From the sequence record PX441839.1: a DNA stretch of 64,000 bases; one strand, 5' to 3'. Of the stretch, positions 50,366 through 60,735 are shown in pieces. Source of the stretch: a phage. A model generated the notes under the pieces. It made no database searches and was not told the DNA's origin. It saw nothing but the letters and a program-made list of their open reading frames with translations. Within the stretch, counting starts at the first letter, position 1, and every line of letters begins with the position of its first letter. The position numbers and the translations under genes are program-made.

Positions 50366-51286
50366 TCATACCACCTTTTTCAAATTCTTAACCAGGTCTG
50401 CAACTGACAATCCAGTTGTTGTCACCAACTCATTAAGGGCATGAGCAGCCTTTTCTTCGGCAAACTTGAGATTACCTGCCTCAATTGCCTTGGATTTGTC
50501 CATAATAACTGGAGACATGTTCTCTGTCAACTCCTTACCAGTGATAAAGCAACGCTTCGCTCGATATGCCGCCTTGAAATGAGCAAAGGAGATTGTAATC
50601 TCGTGATTATGCTTTGCCAAGAAGCGCAGTAGTCCCGCATATCTCTCAGCAATGATCACATCATCAGGAACAGAATTAACAATAACCTTCTCTTTAGGTG
50701 TGGCAGACTCCTGGTCCTCGACCACCTTTTCAACTTCCACCTTGTGATCCCCTAATCCATGTAATGTAATAGTTTCTTTTTCTTCGTTACGAATTTCCAC
50801 AAGTTCACCCTCTTCGTTGATTGCATATTCAAAATCTGGAATATATTTAGTTTTCAGGTATTCCATGTGTTCTGGAGACATATGCTCAAACATGGCTTTT
50901 ACGTATCTTTGCTCACCAGCCTGGATCGTTGCCTTTCGATCAACCTTATCGATAAGCTGGTCCTTGAGTTGATTAACCCGTTGTATGGCAACACAGACAT
51001 TGCCACGGACATAGCCCTTTTTATCATCGATCCTTTCAAGTGTTGGGTGCTCAGACTGATGGATACTCCCAACAGGGAATGGAAGATCAGTGTAGTCGCA
51101 ATTCCCTCTACCACAGAGCTTTTCTGCCAACATTTTTATGTCAGAGAGAGTGAGCGTAAATTCCAAGCCCCTGTCGTTTGCCTCTTTTCTTTTACGAGCC
51201 ATTCGGTTACGAAGGTACTCGCCATCTTCTCCGAAGATTTGTACAAAGTGACTTGAGCAGAAATTTTGGTGGTCTAATATTTGCAT
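50366..51286 (-). CDS. Hypothetical protein (306 aa)
   Basis: Long ORF, no confident motif. Confidence 0.4.
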   Translation of the reverse strand: MQILDHQNFCSSHFVQIFGEDGEYLRNRMARKRKEANDRGLEFTLTLSDIKMLAEKLCGRGNCDYTDLPFPVGSIHQSEHPTLERIDDKKGYVRGNVCVAIQRVNQLKDQLIDKVDRKATIQAGEQRYVKAMFEHMSPEHMEYLKTKYIPDFEYAINEEGELVEIRNEEKETITLHGLGDHKVEVEKVVEDQESATPKEKVIVNSVPDDVIIAERYAGLLRFLAKHNHEITISFAHFKAAYRAKRCFITGKELTENMSPVIMDKSKAIEAGNLKFAEEKAAHALNELVTTTGLSVADLVKNLKKVV

Positions 51287-51928: not shown

Positions 51929-51957
51929 TTGACACCTTAAGAATATTGTACAATAAT
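51929..51957 (+). promoter_or_regulatory. Sigma70-like promoter for the rightward island (divergent from the previous one)
   Basis: TTGACA, 17-nt spacer, AATAAT; AAGGAG SD and ATG follow at 51975-51988. Confidence 0.45.
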
Positions 51958-51985
51958 GTCGTCACACAAACACAAGGAGAAACAG

Positions 51986-52543
51986 ATGAATAAATTATCG
52001 CCAGAAAAACAACTTGCCCTTATGATTAAACTTGCAGCAGATGGGCATCTTGACCAGTTCGACAAAGGGGGTCGTCCTTATGTTCTTCACGTATTAAAGG
52101 TTATGCATTATCTCAAAGAGAAGAGTGACGATGAGCTTAATTGCATTGCGGTAGGACATGATTTACTAGAGGATACCTTGATGGACATGTTCACTCTACA
52201 AAATCTGGGATTCTCTGTCCGAGTTATCGATGGGATTGTACGTCTTACGAAGGTTTCATCTGATAATGATGTTTCCTACATGTATCGGGTCCTGGATAGT
52301 TTCGATGCTTGTCGCGTCAAGTTGGCAGATCTGCGACACAATACAGATATTCGCCGTTTGAAAGGTGTCCGAGAAAAAGACTTGAAACGTATGGCAAAGT
52401 ATCATAAAATGCACCTCAGCATCAGTGAGATGATCAAGTGGTATGAAGAAAACAACTTGAAAAATTACACTTACCCTGGGGATTACTTTACAGAAAAAGA
52501 TGAGAAAATTGAGGAGATTATGAATGCGTATAAGGGTGGTTAA
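51986..52543 (+). CDS. Small alarmone hydrolase (RelA/SpoT-type HD domain)
   Basis: GRPYVLHVLKV..., IAVGHDLLEDT and VKLADLRHN match the SpoT/Mesh1 hydrolase signature; start set to the ATG with a proper SD because the upstream ATG lies in the -10 box. Confidence 0.7.
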   Translation: MNKLSPEKQLALMIKLAADGHLDQFDKGGRPYVLHVLKVMHYLKEKSDDELNCIAVGHDLLEDTLMDMFTLQNLGFSVRVIDGIVRLTKVSSDNDVSYMYRVLDSFDACRVKLADLRHNTDIRRLKGVREKDLKRMAKYHKMHLSISEMIKWYEENNLKNYTYPGDYFTEKDEKIEEIMNAYKGG

Positions 52544-52866: not shown

Positions 52867-53392
52867 AATTACACACAGTTTTCAGTCGAAGTTTAGCTCC
52901 TATGTTGGAAAATTGAACTCTTGGGCACATCTGTGCGATGTTGGTGAGGATAAGGAGATACCAGAGGGCAAGGTGAAAATCACCTCCTTAGGTTGTCGGT
53001 TTGACAAGGTAGAACCAAAAGAGGTGTACTCGATCTGGGCGCTTCTTGATGCAACAGTCCCTGGTTGGAAGGGTGATTACCAGTTTGAATACTCGAGGGA
53101 TGAATTCCTAACCTGCTCTTGTGGTCATGGCGGGTGTGCTGGATACTTCAATGGTATACGTATCCACAAGAAAAAGAAAGCTTATCGGTTGACGGGTAAA
53201 AAGAAAGACGGTTATACTAAAGGTGTTGTTGGGACAGGGCATCAGGTGGTGTATCTGTCCCGTGAAGAGGTGGAATCAGTCCGAGATGAGTTCTTAGATA
53301 TGTTTAAAAAGGACCTGAATGGTATTTTCCAAATCAACGATATGTTCATCACTGGGGCATATGGCCTTAAACGTTGGGGGACCAAGAAGTGA
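52859..53392 (+). CDS. Cys-rich hypothetical protein
   Basis: CSCGHGGCAGY motif; internal ATG with GAGG SD. Confidence 0.4.
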   Translation: MGKITHSFQSKFSSYVGKLNSWAHLCDVGEDKEIPEGKVKITSLGCRFDKVEPKEVYSIWALLDATVPGWKGDYQFEYSRDEFLTCSCGHGGCAGYFNGIRIHKKKKAYRLTGKKKDGYTKGVVGTGHQVVYLSREEVESVRDEFLDMFKKDLNGIFQINDMFITGAYGLKRWGTKK

Positions 53393-54000
53393 AGCGTACC
53401 AAAAACATCAACAAATCTCGTTTTCGAAAATCTTTTACAGGTGCGGCGGTTGCAGTGGCATTGACGTTCTCCTTGTCTGCTTGTGAACAGGCAGATGAGA
53501 CAGTAAAATTCTACCAGAATGCAGAGGAGTGTGTCACTGGTGGAAATCCCGCTGAAACATGTAAATTGGCAGAAGAACAAGCAAAAAAGGTTGCTACAGA
53601 GACGGCCCCTCGGTTTGCGACACTTGAGGATTGCCGAGCCGAATTTGGAGACATGTGTCAAAACAATAGTTCAGGGGGGAATTCGGATTCCCCGTGGATG
53701 CCCTTGATGATGGGGTATATGCTTGGAAACATGATGAGCAATAACGGTAGCAACCACTACTACCACAACAGTTCCCCGATGTATAAGTCAAAATCAGGGA
53801 AGTGGATGGACAATAAGTTCAGGAGTTATAATGTAACACCTGGTAAAACGTTTAAAGTTACAAAGTCAGCGATCAATCCAAAGGCACAGGCACCAAAGAG
53901 TACAATCAGTGGAAGCAAAAAGTCATCTTCCTCTTTTAAGTCAACCACAACAACTCGGGGTGGTTTCGGTAGTTCAGTTGGCCGCAGCAGCGGCGGATAA
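53389..54000 (+). CDS. Putative lipoprotein (Ser/Asn/Gly-rich)
   Basis: GTG start overlapping the upstream stop; signal-like AAVAVALTFSLSAC with lipobox LSAC. Confidence 0.45.
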   Translation: MKRTKNINKSRFRKSFTGAAVAVALTFSLSACEQADETVKFYQNAEECVTGGNPAETCKLAEEQAKKVATETAPRFATLEDCRAEFGDMCQNNSSGGNSDSPWMPLMMGYMLGNMMSNNGSNHYYHNSSPMYKSKSGKWMDNKFRSYNVTPGKTFKVTKSAINPKAQAPKSTISGSKKSSSSFKSTTTTRGGFGSSVGRSSGG

Positions 54001-54331: not shown

Positions 54332-54389
54332 GTTGACTTGACTAAAAGGGGCGTGTAAAGTGCCCCTGTTATTTCAATAAGGAGAAGAT

Positions 54390-55610
54390 ATGACAATCAA
54401 AACATATGAACGAGTATCGCAGAGCGTATTTAAAAAACGAATTAACATCCGTCAAATGTACGATATGATGCTTCTTGGTAAAATGATCGGTAAGACTGTG
54501 TTCTTCTACGGCGGCGCTGGCCTTGGTAAGTCTCAAAAGATGCGCCAAGTAGCGGATATTTTGTTTCCGCACCGAATTGGGGATAACCTTGTCGATGTCC
54601 GGTTGTCCGATAAGGAACCCCAAGATATTGCAGGGATTCAGATCCCGATTGAACTGCCAGATGGGACTGCTCGCACCGTTTATGCTGTCCCTGACTTTTG
54701 GCCCACAGATCCAGATTGGGAAGGGATCATCTTTTTAGATGAACTTCCTAATGCTGGTCCGGCAACCCAGCAAAGTTCTTACCAAGTTGTTTTGGATCAT
54801 ATTGCGGGTAGTCATGTGTTCCCGAAGGGTGCTATTTACGCTGGGGCAGGGAACCGAGACTCTGACAATGGTAACACTCATGAGATCCTCGGTCCTTTAG
54901 TTAACCGAATGATGATGTGTGAGATTGATTATGACTTGGATATCTGGATCGAGGATTTTGCAATCCCTTTCCGAATCCACCCGATGGTTATTGGATTCTT
55001 AAAGAACTTTCCACATCATTTCTACACAGGTGATGTTGAAAACCGATCAACAGTCGTATTTGCCTCACCTCGTCAGTGGGAAACAGTCTCTAAGATTCTG
55101 TTTTGCCTGGATGAAAAACTGATCAGTACAGAGATTGCAGAGATCGCCATCTGCGGTTCAGTTGGAGAGGGCCTTGATACTGAGCTTCTGGCATACTATA
55201 AGAGAGCTAAGACTCTACCTGACTTGGAGGATATTTTCTCCGGTAAAGTTACCAAGCACAAGATCCCTCATGAGGATATGGATCTGGTGTATGTTCTGTC
55301 TCAGATTTCTATCCGTAAGATCGAAGATGAGATTATGAATAATAACATGTCAGATGAAGATGTTATTGAACGTGTTGGCAACTTCTTGACCTTCATGTAC
55401 GAAAACTACGGAAAGGAAAACAGAGATACCGTGATGGCAATGATCACCTCTCTCTTCCGAGCACCGACAGGGCAAACTCCAGTTCTTCAAATGAACCCTC
55501 GTCGCAGTAAAATGGGGCCGCTTCTCCGCAAGCGTACTCCAACAATGATGAAGGTGGTAATGGACTACATGACCCGTTACGGTTCAATCATGGCGGACTT
55601 TGAAAAGTAA
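54390..55610 (+). CDS. AAA+ ATPase (MoxR/CobS-like)
   Basis: Walker A GGAGLGKSQ, Walker B IIFLDELPNA, sensor-1-like AGAGN. Confidence 0.6.
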   Translation: MTIKTYERVSQSVFKKRINIRQMYDMMLLGKMIGKTVFFYGGAGLGKSQKMRQVADILFPHRIGDNLVDVRLSDKEPQDIAGIQIPIELPDGTARTVYAVPDFWPTDPDWEGIIFLDELPNAGPATQQSSYQVVLDHIAGSHVFPKGAIYAGAGNRDSDNGNTHEILGPLVNRMMMCEIDYDLDIWIEDFAIPFRIHPMVIGFLKNFPHHFYTGDVENRSTVVFASPRQWETVSKILFCLDEKLISTEIAEIAICGSVGEGLDTELLAYYKRAKTLPDLEDIFSGKVTKHKIPHEDMDLVYVLSQISIRKIEDEIMNNNMSDEDVIERVGNFLTFMYENYGKENRDTVMAMITSLFRAPTGQTPVLQMNPRRSKMGPLLRKRTPTMMKVVMDYMTRYGSIMADFEK

Positions 55611-55613
55611 TTG

Positions 55614-55641
55614 TTGACTTTGATTAATTGGCTATTAGAAT
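55614..55641 (+). promoter_or_regulatory. Possible sigma70-like promoter
   Basis: TTGACT, 16-nt spacer, TAGAAT, followed by a hairpin and T-run. Confidence 0.3.
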
Positions 55642-55683
55642 AGGGGTGTCCGAAAGGGCATCCCTTTTTTATTTGGAGGATAT

Positions 55684-57237
55684 ATGGATTTTGAAAGTAT
55701 CATGAGTGATGAAGAACTTACCCTTGCGAACAGTGTCGATGATGAGGCTAGGAAACTTCTAGAGGCAGCTAGTCTACAGCTTATGCGTTATCGACCTTTC
55801 TACGGCACTCTGCTTGCGTCTATGCCTGTGAAAAGGGCAACAGAGTGGTTGTCCACTATGGCAACAGACGGGAGGAACCTGTACTACTCTCCTGAGTTTA
55901 TCGCTGGTATGACTCCAGAGAGAAAACAAGCAGTTTTTAAAAGAATTGACTATCTACAAACAGATCCTAAAAAGAACAAGGAGTTGAAAACTTATATTGA
56001 TGTTTTCTACAGAAGAAAGACTGCAAGAGAGGTTTGCTTTGTGTTGCAACATGAAGTAAGGCACGTTGTTGCAGACCATGCTACTCGTGGCAGAGGTTTT
56101 GATCACAAAACTTACAACTGTGCAGCAGACCATTATATCAATACCGATTTGATCATTGTCCATTCCAAATCCAGTGATATTGGTCAAGCTTGGTTTCCCC
56201 TTGGCAGCAAAACAAAATGGGATCTGGACAAAGAGTGGGGATTCATGCACTACGCCCTCGCTGATTTTCGATTCCACGGTATGCATACGGAAGAGATTTA
56301 CGACATACTCAAGAAAGAGGACCAAGTAAAACTTATGGGCCTCAAAGGGGCAGACCAACACCAGGGTTCGAATGGGAAGATGGGTACTGAAAACCAAGAT
56401 CGTGCCAGTGATGAAGGAGATGGTGGGGAGGAACAAAAAGAAGGTGAATTGGGACAAGGTGACGTATCAGATGCATTGGGTATTGATGTCCATGCACAAC
56501 CTACCTGCTCCAGTGAACAAAAACAGGCCAATGATACAGTGATGAGACAGGCCATAGAGAATGCTGTCAAAGCTGCTGGGGCAGGTGCTCCTCCAGAGGC
56601 CCGTGAGTTCGTAGAGGAAGCAGGGAAGCCTAAAATAAATTACCTAAGGCTGATTCGTAGAACAGTCGAAAGAATGATGAAAGAGCACCTTTCTTATCGA
56701 CGACCAGCAAGACGTAGTTTTGGTCTTACGAAAGCATTGCGTCGTGGAGGGTACATTCCACGCAACCAGAGCGTCATCCTGCCTGGGAAGATTAAGGGTA
56801 AGACAATCCGCTGTCATATCGGTTTTGACGTCTCAGGATCGTTTACAGACGACCTGCTGGCACCAACAAGGAGGGAGATCTCCGGTCTGTGTGGACTTTA
56901 CGAAGACTTTGAGGTAACATTGTTTTGTTGGTCAACAAAGGTTGGCAACTTGGTTCGCTACACAAAGGATAACTTCCGAGCTATCAAGGATTACAAGATC
57001 CAAACAACGGGAGGGACTGATGTTAGATGTGTGTTCAATAAGCTAGATGAGTTGAAAGAACCAATTGATCAGGTGATCATCTACACTGATGGTGTGTTCG
57101 GTGATGTTTCCAAAGAGAAAGATTGGGCCAAGAAGTATGGTAACAAGACGCTTTGGGTGATCATCGACCGAGGTCGGAAGAAAGAATGGAAAGCTCCATT
57201 CGGTAAAGTTATTATGTTTGACAAATACTTAAAGTAA
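55684..57237 (+). CDS. vWA-domain protein with N-terminal HExxH region (partner of the AAA+ ATPase)
   Basis: HEVRH zinc-peptidase-like motif in the N-terminal half; MIDAS-like DVSGS in IGFDVSGSF in the C-terminal half. Confidence 0.5.
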   Translation: MDFESIMSDEELTLANSVDDEARKLLEAASLQLMRYRPFYGTLLASMPVKRATEWLSTMATDGRNLYYSPEFIAGMTPERKQAVFKRIDYLQTDPKKNKELKTYIDVFYRRKTAREVCFVLQHEVRHVVADHATRGRGFDHKTYNCAADHYINTDLIIVHSKSSDIGQAWFPLGSKTKWDLDKEWGFMHYALADFRFHGMHTEEIYDILKKEDQVKLMGLKGADQHQGSNGKMGTENQDRASDEGDGGEEQKEGELGQGDVSDALGIDVHAQPTCSSEQKQANDTVMRQAIENAVKAAGAGAPPEAREFVEEAGKPKINYLRLIRRTVERMMKEHLSYRRPARRSFGLTKALRRGGYIPRNQSVILPGKIKGKTIRCHIGFDVSGSFTDDLLAPTRREISGLCGLYEDFEVTLFCWSTKVGNLVRYTKDNFRAIKDYKIQTTGGTDVRCVFNKLDELKEPIDQVIIYTDGVFGDVSKEKDWAKKYGNKTLWVIIDRGRKKEWKAPFGKVIMFDKYLK

Positions 57238-60636: not shown

Positions 60637-60655
60637 AGGGGCCTAGGAAGGCCCC
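60637..60655 (+). terminator. Hairpin, probable terminator
   Basis: AGGGGCC-TAGGA-AGGCCCCT; weak T-run. Confidence 0.4.
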
Positions 60656-60735
60656 TGTTGCGTTTAAACGACACAACCCTTAACATCGTACCAGATGACC
60701 AGAAAGTCTCTCAGAATTGATTACAGGAGCTTACA

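What the first reader, a model, noticed from the sequence alone, without database searches (positions are those of the whole stretch)
54390..57237. AAA+ ATPase paired with a vWA protein carrying an HExxH motif
A MoxR/CobS-like ATPase is followed by a 517 aa protein with a HEVRH motif in the N-terminal half and a MIDAS-like DVSGS in the C-terminal half. Such ATPase plus vWA pairs usually act as chaperone or remodelling machines; a version with a possible metallopeptidase module in a phage non-structural island has no obvious role.
Basis: partly seen in the sequence, partly recalled or inferred. Interest (0 to 1): 0.55.

Follow-up and report, generated by a model that had tools for sequence, protein, structure and literature searches.

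The report
Phage MoxR ATPase plus zincin-vWA partner
Two adjacent phage genes encode an ATP-driven remodelling enzyme and a partner protein with a probable zinc protease fused to a metal-dependent binding domain; the pair is a widespread, already catalogued module of phages and conjugative plasmids (phage N4 gp24/gp25) whose function I found no experimental test of.

Summary
Window 54390-55610 (+) encodes a 406-aa MoxR-class AAA+ ATPase. Window 55684-57237 (+) encodes a 517-aa protein with an N-terminal zincin-like domain (Pfam DUF2201_N, HEVRHVVADH) and a C-terminal vWA domain (Pfam DUF2201) with a complete MIDAS site.

The pair is not an oddity. It is homologous to coliphage N4 gp24/gp25 (hhalign 99.9% for both). 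These are two of about 14 core genes of N4-like phages. The same MoxR + peptidase-vWA pair was described in jumbo phages in 2021.

In 49 of 50 loci examined the two genes lie within 6.5 kb of each other, and no third gene is shared across clades. The same module also sits on Burkholderiales conjugative plasmids, directly upstream of type IV secretion genes in three of four examined.

The window is a Vequintavirinae (rV5-like) phage. The pair lies in a host-takeover-type region with sigma-70-like promoters.

Best reading: an ATP-driven remodelling and cleavage machine acting before virion assembly on a host or other non-virion target. The target is unknown, and I found no experimental study.

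Verdict: an ordinary new member of a known, functionally uncharacterised kind. Interest is modest.

The parts
54333..54389 (+). Upstream cassette of the ATPase gene: sigma-70-like -35 TTGACT and -10-like TAAAGT overlapping a GC-rich hairpin (54347-54367), then the RBS AAGGAG.
   Evidence: The hairpin is kept in Salmonella phage SSBI34 through a compensatory G-C to T-A change. The promoter call is a consensus match only.
54390..55610 (+). MoxR-class AAA+ ATPase, 406 aa, homologue of N4 gp24. The AAA+ core and lid span roughly residues 20-245, followed by a family-specific helical C-terminal extension (about 245-406).
   Evidence: (PHROG 1297, 2e-93).
54510..54533 (+). Walker A motif GGAGLGKS (residues 41-48).
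   Evidence: G41, G44, G46 and K47 are invariant and S48 nearly so in 27 homologues. The motif follows strand 36-40 in the model.
54738..54743 (+). Walker B residues D117-E118, at the end of the IIFLDE strand.
   Evidence: Invariant. Strand 111-117 in the model.
54852..55073 (+). Stretch holding sensor 1 N155 (54852-54854), arginine R173 (54906-54908) and the sensor 2 motif P227-R228 (55068-55073).
   Evidence: All invariant in 27 homologues. Their positions relative to the strands and helices fit an AAA+ fold.
55611..55683 (+). 73-nt spacer: promoter-like TTGACT-16-TAGAAT (55614-55641), then a terminator-like hairpin of 10 pairs plus a T run (55642-55675), then the RBS GGAGG.
   Evidence: It is 94% identical to SSBI34, against 85% for the two genes overall. 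CR3-like relatives have only about 17 nt here.
55684..57237 (+). Zincin-vWA protein, 517 aa, homologue of N4 gp25 (Pfam DUF2201_N + DUF2201).
55684..56328 (+). Zincin-like domain (residues 1-215): helices, a three-stranded sheet (49-68) and an active-site helix (114-133). A roughly 35-residue insertion (about 77-113) is absent from N4 gp25.
   Evidence: Pfam DUF2201_N. Model pLDDT is above 90 over most of this span. A diverse family profile matches the solved chain MJ1213 (4qhf) at E 3e-5 and M48 peptidases weakly. The insertion is seen.
56050..56079 (+). HEVRHVVADH (residues 123-132): the HExxH motif plus a candidate third zinc ligand, H132.
   Evidence: H123, E124, H127 and H132 are invariant, as are N145, A147 and D149 in the next helix.
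56329..56511 (+). Low-complexity acidic and glycine-rich linker (residues 216-276), variable in length between homologues.
   Evidence: 13 D/E and 12 G in 62 residues. Low pLDDT. Large length variation in the alignment.
56692..56718 (+). Conserved basic loop SYRRPARRS (residues 337-345), just N-terminal to the vWA domain.
   Evidence: The motif [ST][YF]xRPxRR, with an invariant Pro, is conserved family-wide. The loop overlaps a low-confidence stretch of the model, residues 334-340. Its role is unknown.
56794..57234 (+). vWA domain (residues about 371-517) with a complete MIDAS site: D382-x-S384-x-S386 (56827-56841), T445 (57016-57018) and D469 (57088-57090).

Best explanation
The two genes form a self-contained two-component module of the phage N4 gp24/gp25 type.

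Shown here: gene 1 is a MoxR-class AAA+ ATPase with every catalytic motif intact. Gene 2 fuses a zincin-like HExxH domain, through a flexible acidic linker, to a vWA domain with a complete MIDAS site. The two genes are linked across very distant phages and plasmids.

Inferred from solved MoxR-vWA systems (NorQ-NorD): the ATPase forms a hexamer that grips the vWA partner. The MIDAS metal site binds an acidic residue of a target protein, and ATP hydrolysis pulls on or twists the target.

Further inferred: the remodelled target is cut by the zincin domain carried on the same adaptor. That would make the pair a split, adaptor-directed ATP-dependent protease.

Inferred from context: it acts before late gene expression on a host protein or another non-virion target, helping an incoming mobile element take over or establish itself. 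It does not act in virion morphogenesis. The target is unknown.
For: Identity. Pfam DUF2201_N + DUF2201. hhalign 99.9% to N4 gp24 (E 2.6e-37) and N4 gp25 (E 2.2e-32). Closest solved folds to the ATPase are the MoxR ATPases NorQ and CbbQ2, with a profile match to midasin. The C-terminal half is a vWA fold.

Intact chemistry. ATPase motifs, HExxHxxxxH and MIDAS residues are invariant over deep divergence. The catalytic-base Glu is invariant, which fits hydrolysis rather than metal binding alone. The zincin profile matches MJ1213 (4qhf) at E 3e-5, including the third His.

Coupling. 49 of 50 loci hold both genes within 6.5 kb, and no other gene family is shared across clades.

Pre-late timing or a non-virion role. 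N4 gp24/25 are middle transcripts (PMC4193335). Sigma-70-type promoters are annotated upstream of both rV5 genes. Promoter-like sites sit before both window genes and the spacer site is conserved in SSBI34. Neighbours are an Srd-like protein, an HD phosphohydrolase and small ORFs. Distant homologues sit beside DNA polymerase or thymidylate kinase genes.

Plasmids. The homologous module lies on conjugative plasmids, which make no virions. It sits directly upstream of VirB/Trb genes in three of four Burkholderiales plasmids examined.

General mechanism. The NorQD work shows a vWA 'finger' entering the MoxR pore (PMC9976466, PMC13036017).
Against: No experiment on any member was found. Peptidase activity is untested, and the zincin fold is supported only by sequence profiles. 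Both structure searches of the full model returned vWA hits only. No vWA 'finger' or ATPase-vWA interface was modelled here. The promoter matches are consensus hits, and their overall count is not above shuffled sequence (20 against 15.4 +/- 3.7). In Rak2-like jumbo phages the pair lies next to genes annotated as structural. The ATPase homologue was detected in a phAPEC6 virion preparation (PMC7247149). The plasmid homologues are only about 25-30% identical to N4 gp25, include an extra roughly 305-aa gene, and could have a different role.
Confidence: 0.45

Rival explanations
1. Virion assembly chaperone plus maturation protease. The MoxR-vWA pair would help assemble a head or tail structure while the fused peptidase trims structural proteins. 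This was proposed for jumbo phages by analogy with the MoxR-vWA pair of the Acidianus two-tailed virus.
For: The proposal is published (PMC7824862, section 3.4.5). In 121Q the pair follows genes annotated as structural. The ATPase homologue (49.5 kDa) was detected by mass spectrometry in phAPEC6 virion preparations (PMC7247149; mass match).
Against: The same module occurs in podoviruses (N4-like), in myoviruses (rV5-like, Rak2-like) and in conjugative plasmids that build no virion. No structural gene is co-conserved with it. N4 gp24/25 are middle genes (PMC4193335). In the window and in rV5 the pair sits among early-type genes with sigma-70-like promoters. The phAPEC6 list also contains thymidylate synthase, so it includes non-structural carry-over, and the vWA partner is not listed there.
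Confidence: 0.2
2. Non-proteolytic maturation factor. As with NorQ/NorD, CbbQ/CbbO or the chelatases, the pair would insert a metal or remodel a specific enzyme complex of the phage or host. The HExxH site would act as a metal-holding site rather than a protease.
For: The closest solved structures to the ATPase are NorQ and CbbQ2, and NorD's vWA domain is among the top matches for the partner. Most characterised MoxR-vWA pairs act in cofactor insertion or complex activation (PMC9976466, PMC13036017).
Against: The Glu of HExxH, which is a catalytic base and not a ligand in zincins, is invariant across the family. The profile similarity is to peptidases (MJ1213, M48). No client enzyme gene is co-conserved nearby.
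Confidence: 0.15
3. Inter-element conflict or exclusion module. The pair would attack proteins of competing phages or plasmids, acting in superinfection exclusion or as a defence-like system carried by mobile elements, rather than helping the carrier's own takeover.
For: It is carried by many kinds of mobile element. One is Synechocystis plasmid pSYSA, where it lies among toxin-antitoxin-type genes. vWA-MoxR systems with effector domains are predicted conflict systems (PMC7159879). A lipoprotein-like gene lies upstream in the window and a gene annotated as lipoprotein lies upstream in N4.
Against: There is no match to any PADLOC defence model. Its core-gene status in N4-like phages (PMC4193335, PMC7650795) fits an essential step of the phage's own cycle better than an accessory exclusion gene.
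Confidence: 0.1
4. Chance motifs in two unrelated hypothetical proteins, with no functional pairing.
For: HExxH and DxSxS alone arise in 2% and 8% of shuffles of this protein. The ATPase has no significant Pfam hit.
Against: There are strong profile matches, invariant catalytic residues and confident fold predictions, and the genes are linked in 49 of 50 loci.
Confidence: 0.01

Closest known systems
Coliphage N4 gp24 (AAA+ ATPase) and gp25 ('vWFA domain' protein), core genes of N4-like phages (Schitoviridae)
   Same: Homologous over the whole AAA+ core and over both domains of the partner (hhalign 99.9% each). Same gene order, same strand, adjacent. Same Pfam architecture, DUF2201_N + DUF2201. 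No functional study found for either pair.
   Different: The window proteins are longer (406 against 352 aa; 517 against 380 aa). The ATPase has a longer C-terminal helical extension. The partner has an N-terminal extension, a roughly 35-residue insertion before the active-site helix and a long acidic linker. The host phage is a Vequintavirinae myovirus, not a podovirus.
MoxR AAA+ / peptidase-vWA 'chaperone-cochaperone' pair of group 2.2 jumbo phages (Iyer et al. 2021, PMC7824862)
   Same: Same architecture and same family. Rak2/121Q-type loci were recovered with both profiles, with the genes adjacent.
   Different: About 25% identity to the window's vWA protein and about 27-29% to its ATPase. 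The published proposal of virion assembly and processing is not favoured by the context seen here.
NorQ/NorD and CbbQ/CbbO (CGN-type MoxR ATPases with vWA partners)
   Different: Only 13-16% identity. NorQ and CbbQ lack the C-terminal extension. NorD and CbbO have no zincin domain. Those systems mature a known enzyme encoded nearby, and none is present here.
Acidianus two-tailed virus MoxR-vWA pair (as cited in PMC7824862 and PMC7159879)
   Same: A viral MoxR ATPase working with a viral vWA protein.
   Different: It has no peptidase domain (PMC7824862). It is an archaeal virus, with a role in extracellular tail development. Homology to the window pair was not tested here.
Minimal zincins and M48-type peptidases (MJ1213, PDB 4qhf; BepA, HtpX, Ste24)
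   Same: The family profile of the N-terminal domain aligns to MJ1213 over the strands, the HExxH helix and the third His at E 3e-5, and to M48 peptidases at E 0.04-0.1.
   Different: The match covers only about 53 residues. The spacing is HExxHxxxxH. The rest of DUF2201_N (the NxAxD helix and the RPxRR loop) has no counterpart, and no solved homologue of the whole domain was found.
AAA+ proteases and AAA+-assisted zincins (FtsH; Wss1/SPRTN with Cdc48/p97), recalled from general knowledge
   Same: They combine ATP-driven unfolding or remodelling with an HExxH metalloprotease. This is the working analogy for the proposed mechanism.
   Different: This is an analogy, not homology. There the AAA+ modules belong to the classical clade, and the protease is either fused to the ATPase (FtsH) or recruited by short motifs. 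Here the protease rides on a vWA adaptor of a MoxR ATPase.
CobS/CobT cobaltochelatase subunits, common in marine phages
   Same: An AAA+ (MoxR-related) ATPase plus a vWA-containing partner.
   Different: There are no CobS or CobT family hits. The partner's N-terminal half is a zincin-like domain.

Membership tests
MoxR-class AAA+ ATPase | Walker A, Walker B, sensor 1, arginine finger and sensor 2 present and conserved | tested here: met
   GGAGLGKS (41-48), D117-E118, N155, R173 and P227-R228 are invariant in 27 homologues and correctly placed in the model.
MoxR-class AAA+ ATPase | Closest sequence and structure relatives are MoxR, midasin or dynein-type (AAA_5) modules | tested here: met
   Profile against the PDB: midasin at E 9e-19. 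Foldseek: NorQ, CbbQ2 and dynein on top, TM (target-normalised) 0.58-0.65 for NorQ/CbbQ2. Relatives N4 gp24, Ab09 ORF30 and the plasmid ATPases hit Pfam AAA_5. The window protein itself misses Pfam thresholds (bpMoxR, E 0.073).
MoxR-class AAA+ ATPase | Hexamer with ATPase activity | not testable with these tools
   No multimer prediction or biochemistry was available.
MoxR-vWA two-component system | Conserved genomic linkage of the ATPase with a vWA/MIDAS protein | tested here: met
   49 of 50 loci have both genes within 6.5 kb. They are tandem in the window, SSBI34, CR3-like, Rak2-like and N4-like loci, and divergent in rV5/PVP-SE1-like loci.
MoxR-vWA two-component system | Physical engagement of the vWA domain with the ATPase ring (the 'finger' in the pore, as in NorQD) | not tested
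   Known for NorQD (PMC9976466, PMC13036017). No complex model was made here. A conserved hairpin (409-426) and the RPxRR loop (337-345) are candidates only.
vWA domain with MIDAS | vWA fold and the DxSxS...T...D metal site | tested here: met
Pfam DUF2201_N + DUF2201 (N4 gp25 family) | Both Pfam domains above the gathering score, in this order | tested here: met
   108.6 bits (cut-off 23.2) and 39.0 bits (cut-off 26.4). hhalign to N4 gp25 is 99.9% over 356 columns.
Zincin metallopeptidase | HExxH on a helix plus a third zinc ligand, conserved | tested here: met
   H123, E124, H127 and H132 are invariant. Helix 114-133 in the model. The third His aligns with that of MJ1213.
Zincin metallopeptidase | Zincin fold confirmed against solved structures | tested here: inconclusive
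   A sequence profile reaches MJ1213 at E 3e-5 and M48 peptidases weakly. Both structure searches of the full model listed only vWA matches. hhalign to one SprT-like sequence gave 22% probability.
Zincin metallopeptidase | Peptidase activity | not testable with these tools
   Needs biochemistry.
CobS/CobT cobaltochelatase | Matches to CobS and CobT family models | tested here: not met
   No such hits in Pfam or NCBIfam, even at E up to 10 for the ATPase.
Known anti-phage defence systems (PADLOC) | Match to a defence-system protein model | tested here: not met
   No hits for either protein.
HNH endonuclease (the name carried by PHROG 1314 and many GenBank records) | HNH domain | tested here: not met
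   Pfam finds only DUF2201_N and DUF2201. The 'HNH endonuclease' label appears to be a propagated misannotation.

The most novel reading that the evidence does not exclude
The N4 gp24/gp25-type module is a shared 'establishment' weapon of virulent phages and conjugative plasmids. It would be a split ATP-dependent protease in which a MoxR ring and a MIDAS adaptor capture a conserved host protein, such as a defence or housekeeping factor, soon after DNA entry, and the adaptor's own zincin domain cuts it. That would define a new class of anti-host machine and explain why the pair is a core gene set in N4-like phages.
Probability: 0.25. Interest if true: 0.7.

Novelty: new member of a known kind. 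Interest (0 to 1): 0.33.

Why it matters
The module is very common. The vWA-zincin profile matches about 22,000 clusters at 50% identity. It is present in hundreds of sequenced phages. It is two of roughly 14 core genes of N4-like phages. Yet I found no experimental function for it in the searched literature. This window adds one more member and does not change that picture. The useful by-products are three. First, the widely propagated 'HNH endonuclease' and 'ribosomal protein uS19' labels are wrong. Second, the pair behaves as a two-gene unit with no conserved third partner in phages. Third, its presence next to type IV secretion genes on conjugative plasmids, together with early or middle placement in phages, argues against the only published proposal (virion assembly). 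It points instead to a role in host takeover or establishment, which is directly testable in N4 or in rV5-like phages.

Tried and rejected
(1) Direct searches of both proteins against PDB sequences found nothing meaningful.

(2) NCBIfam and PADLOC gave no hits.

(4) hhalign of the N-domain profile against a single SprT-like sequence aligned only the HExxH helix, at 22% probability. I do not claim a SprT/Wss1 relationship.

(5) The genome-contig scans failed. The first pattern was too clade-specific and gave no confirmed loci. Chromosomal contexts were therefore not surveyed, and plasmids were used instead.

(6) Cluster look-up of ten family representatives gave almost no names or organisms.

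(7) Literature searches for DUF2201, COG3864, MoxR/vWA/phage, N4 gp24/gp25, CRISPRi-ART and 'VWA-like domain' found no functional study. One search, on Vequintavirinae transcriptomes, was unproductive.

(8) A CobS/CobT identity was considered and rejected, because there are no family hits and the partner architecture is wrong.

(9) A conserved third component was searched for by all-against-all BLAST of 50 loci. None was found across clades. A roughly 305-aa middle gene exists only in plasmids and a few viral contigs, not in the window.
Full report
**Observation.** HEVRH lies at residues 123-127 of the second protein and DVSGS at 382-386. The short motifs alone are weak evidence. Shuffles of the protein contain HExxH in 2% and DxSxS in 8% of trials. 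The case rests on profiles, conservation and structure.

**The window.** The nearest record is Salmonella phage SSBI34 (Vequintavirinae, rV5-like myoviruses, 141 kb). It is 85% identical in DNA over the pair, and its proteins are 97% and 94% identical. The pair lies in a + strand block that begins near 51.9 kb, after a strand switch that also shows in the GC skew. Its neighbours are:
- an Srd-like/HNH-like gene (50366-51286, - strand);
- an HD-domain 'RelA/SpoT'-type phosphohydrolase (51956-52543);
- a protein with a signal-peptide-like N-terminus and an LSAC lipobox-like motif (53374-54000);
- many small ORFs of unknown function.

**The ATPase.** Pfam finds nothing at E<0.01. The only weak hit is bpMoxR at E 0.073. 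PHROG 1297 'ATPase' matches at 2e-93.
- In an alignment of 27 homologues down to 23% identity, several motifs are invariant: Walker A (GGAGLGKS, 41-48), Walker B (D117-E118), sensor 1 (N155), R173 and the sensor 2 motif (P227-R228).
- A profile of that alignment matches the AAA modules of midasin at E 9e-19.
- The AlphaFold2 model is confident (pLDDT 89.4, pTM 0.81) and places each motif where an AAA+ fold needs it.
- Its best solved matches are the MoxR ATPases NorQ (2026 NorQD cryo-EM entries) and CbbQ2. Dynein motor domains and clamp-loader AAA+ subunits follow.

It is therefore a MoxR-class AAA+ ATPase with a family-specific helical C-terminal extension of about 150 residues. There are no CobS family hits.

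**The partner.** Pfam gives DUF2201_N ('putative metallopeptidase domain', E 5.6e-31, residues 115-359) and DUF2201 ('VWA-like domain', E 1e-9, residues 380-512).
- In 25 homologues, H123, E124, H127, H132, N145, A147 and D149 are invariant. So are D382, S384, G385, S386, T445 and D469.
- The equivalent residues are invariant in a second alignment of 30 much more diverse members, with N4 gp25 as the reference.
- The AF2 model (pLDDT 81) shows four parts. A well-predicted N-terminal domain has a three-stranded sheet and the HExxH on helix 114-133. A disordered acidic, glycine-rich linker follows (13 D/E and 12 G in residues 215-276). Next comes a helical segment ending in a conserved basic loop (SYRRPARRS, 337-345). 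The last part is a compact vWA domain.

Because vWA hits dominate, neither search classified the N-terminal half. A diverse sequence profile of that half does reach a solved chain. It matches M. jannaschii MJ1213 (PDB 4qhf) at E 3e-5 over the strands, the HExxH helix and the third histidine. M48-family peptidases follow at E 0.04-0.1 (a weaker version appears). From memory, MJ1213 is a minimal active metallopeptidase. The zincin assignment is thus well supported by sequence, but not confirmed by fold comparison or activity.

**What the pair is.** Profile-profile comparison shows the two proteins are homologues of coliphage N4 gp24 and gp25. Probability is 99.9% for both (E 2.6e-37 over 281 columns; E 2.2e-32 over 356 columns spanning both domains).
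- N4 gp25 is a textbook DUF2201_N + DUF2201 protein (E 3e-87 and 1e-46).
- gp24 and gp25 are adjacent in N4. They are listed among the roughly 14 core genes of N4-like phages, as 'unknown'/'AAA+ ATPase' and 'vWFA domain'/'gp25' (PMC4193335 Table 3; PMC7650795 Table 2). PMC4193335 describes them as middle-gene transcripts in N4.
- Iyer et al. [quoted passage not shown] They proposed a role in virion assembly with proteolytic processing.
- tblastn finds the vWA protein in 417 phage records and the ATPase in 801. These include rV5-like, Rak2/121Q-like, PA5oct-like and many N4-like phages.
- A profile search of 1.84 billion representatives finds 22,071 clusters at E<=1e-3 and 3,190 at E<=1e-30.

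I found no experimental work on any member.

**Linkage.** I collected 49 loci from annotated phages, IMG/VR contigs and metagenome contigs, and added the window. Each locus was searched with HMMs of both proteins.
- All 50 carry the vWA-zincin gene, and 49 carry the ATPase within 6.5 kb.
- The genes are tandem on one strand in the window, SSBI34, CR3-like phages, all Rak2-like jumbo phages, N4 and other N4-like or unclassified contigs.
- In rV5- and PVP-SE1-like phages they lie 3.5-5 kb apart on opposite strands. In rV5 each is downstream of an annotated sigma-70-type promoter.
- In Callisto, and in an A. baumannii record filed as a plasmid whose genes look N4-like, endonuclease-like genes sit between the two.
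- All-against-all BLAST of the ORFs found no other family shared by three or more of the four clades.

The module therefore has two components, and its target is not encoded next to it.

**Plasmids.** tblastn of N4 gp25 against PLSDB finds 74 plasmids, of which 30 are typed as conjugative.
- All four Burkholderiales conjugative plasmids examined (Burkholderia, Paraburkholderia, Cupriavidus) carry the order ATPase, an unknown protein of about 305 aa, then 'VWA-like domain-containing protein'.
- In three of the four this block is directly upstream of the VirB11/TrbC/VirB3/VirB4 type IV secretion genes. In the fourth it lies downstream of a PRTRC cassette gene.
- The plasmid ATPase is homologous to the phage one (hhalign 99.9%, E 4e-36). 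Its partner has both Pfam domains.
- Synechocystis pSYSA carries 'MoxR family ATPase' + 'VWA-like' among toxin-antitoxin-type genes.
- The roughly 305-aa middle gene also occurs in a few viral contigs (L046-L049, L007). It is absent from the window, N4, and the rV5-like and jumbo loci.

**How it most likely works.**

Shown here: both proteins keep every residue needed for ATP hydrolysis, MIDAS metal binding and zincin catalysis. The two genes are inherited together over very deep divergence.

Inferred from solved systems: in NorQ-NorD, a finger of the vWA domain enters the pore of the MoxR hexamer. ATP hydrolysis twists and stretches a linker of the partner to remodel the client (PMC9976466, PMC13036017).

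By analogy: the phage ATPase ring would engage the C-terminal vWA domain. The MIDAS site would hold an acidic residue of a target. The zincin domain, tethered by the flexible acidic linker, would cleave the remodelled target. The pair would then be a split, adaptor-directed ATP-dependent protease. FtsH, or Wss1/SPRTN with Cdc48/p97, are functional analogies only. The invariant catalytic Glu favours real hydrolysis over simple metal holding.

On the target class, I favour a host or otherwise non-virion target acted on before late gene expression. The reasons are:
- the middle-gene status of gp24/gp25 in N4;
- sigma-70-type promoters in rV5 and promoter-like sites before both window genes;
- host-takeover-type neighbours (Srd-like protein, HD phosphohydrolase);
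- placement beside replication or nucleotide-metabolism genes in N4-like contigs;
- occurrence in phages with unrelated virion architectures;
- occurrence on conjugative plasmids, which assemble no virion.

Evidence for the virion-assembly rival also exists. The pair neighbours structural genes in 121Q. The ATPase homologue was detected in phAPEC6 virion preparations: 49.52 kDa listed, against 49.51 kDa computed for 121Q gp563. That list also contains thymidylate synthase and does not list the vWA partner. None of this is experimental proof, so my confidence in the favoured reading is about 0.45.

**Novelty and verdict.** This is a new member, in a Vequintavirinae phage, of a known and widespread kind. 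The kind has a Pfam definition, a place in the N4 core genome and a published in-silico description. Interest is modest (0.33). The open question of what N4 gp24/gp25 do is real and easily testable. The plasmid link and the pre-late context are small new clues against the published assembly hypothesis.

Noticed in passing
window 54333-54389 and 55611-55683 (similar hairpin at 60637-60656): Both genes are preceded by a compact cassette: -35 TTGACT, a -10-like hexamer, a GC-rich hairpin starting AGGGG, a T-rich tail and an RBS. The spacer between the genes is 94% identical to SSBI34, against 85% for the genes. The upstream hairpin keeps its pairing through a compensatory G-C to T-A change. The cassette may combine a terminator with a re-initiation promoter or a 5' stabilising stem.
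   Followed up: partly
window 55684-57237; L006 3165-4307; L002 4004-5329; L001 8001-9221: Annotation errors are propagating. PHROG 1314 and many GenBank records call the zincin-vWA protein 'HNH endonuclease', although there is no HNH domain. SSBI34 calls the ATPase 'ribosomal protein uS19'. Salmonella phage GEC_vB_MG calls the vWA protein 'DNA repair ATPase'. 121Q notes 'T4-gp25-like'.
   Followed up: yes
L050 6061-6987, L052 7013-7942, L053 7073-7990, L057 5992-6942; L046-L049, L007 4352-5209: A roughly 305-aa protein with no Pfam match sits between the ATPase and the vWA gene on Burkholderiales conjugative plasmids and in a few viral contigs. In L007 it lies just downstream. It may be a third component of a three-gene variant. 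It is absent from the window, N4, and the rV5-like and jumbo phages.
   Followed up: partly
L050, L052, L057 (plasmids); L053: On conjugative plasmids the module lies directly upstream of the VirB11/TrbC/VirB3/VirB4 type IV secretion genes. In Cupriavidus it lies downstream of a PRTRC-system gene. This is a conserved block of unknown genes at the edge of the transfer region.
   Followed up: partly
window 50366-51286 (-) and L002 3035-3970: An Srd-like gene (anti-sigma / sigma-70 decoy PHROGs, also labelled HNH) lies near the pair in the window. In rV5 the equivalent gene (gp011) is immediately upstream of the vWA gene.
   Followed up: no
window 51956-52543 (+): An HD-domain 'RelA/SpoT family' metal-dependent phosphohydrolase opens the + strand block, just after a strong promoter-like site (TTGACA-17-AATAAT at 51929). 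It may be a (p)ppGpp hydrolase used in host takeover.
   Followed up: no
window 53374-54000 (+): A 208-aa protein with a signal-peptide-like N-terminus, an LSAC lipobox-like motif and a Ser/Gly-rich C-terminus (PHROG 3739, unknown function). It is a likely lipoprotein. N4 also has a gene annotated as lipoprotein (gp20) a few genes upstream of gp24.
   Followed up: no
L002 4004-5465 (rV5 gp012/gp013): In the rV5 reference genome the vWA-zincin gene is split into two overlapping CDSs. The tblastn match stops at residue 445 of 517. This is a probable frameshift or sequencing error, since other rV5-like phages have the full-length gene.
   Followed up: no
L005 2413-3909; L051 6025-6561: In Pseudomonas phage Callisto a restriction-endonuclease-like gene lies between the ATPase and the vWA gene. 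In an A. baumannii record filed as a plasmid (its RNA polymerase, AAA ATPase and VWA-like genes look N4-like), an HNH endonuclease gene does. These look like mobile endonuclease insertions into the module.
   Followed up: no
L024 (IMGVR_UViG_3300045988_163358): This is the only one of the 50 loci with a full-length vWA-zincin gene but no ATPase homologue within 10 kb on either side.
   Followed up: no
PMC7247149 table; L003 2619-3944: The phAPEC6 virion mass-spectrometry list includes 'gp265c ATPase, 49.52 kDa'. By mass and gene order this matches the 121Q homologue of this ATPase. The list also has thymidylate synthase, and the vWA partner is not listed.
   Followed up: partly
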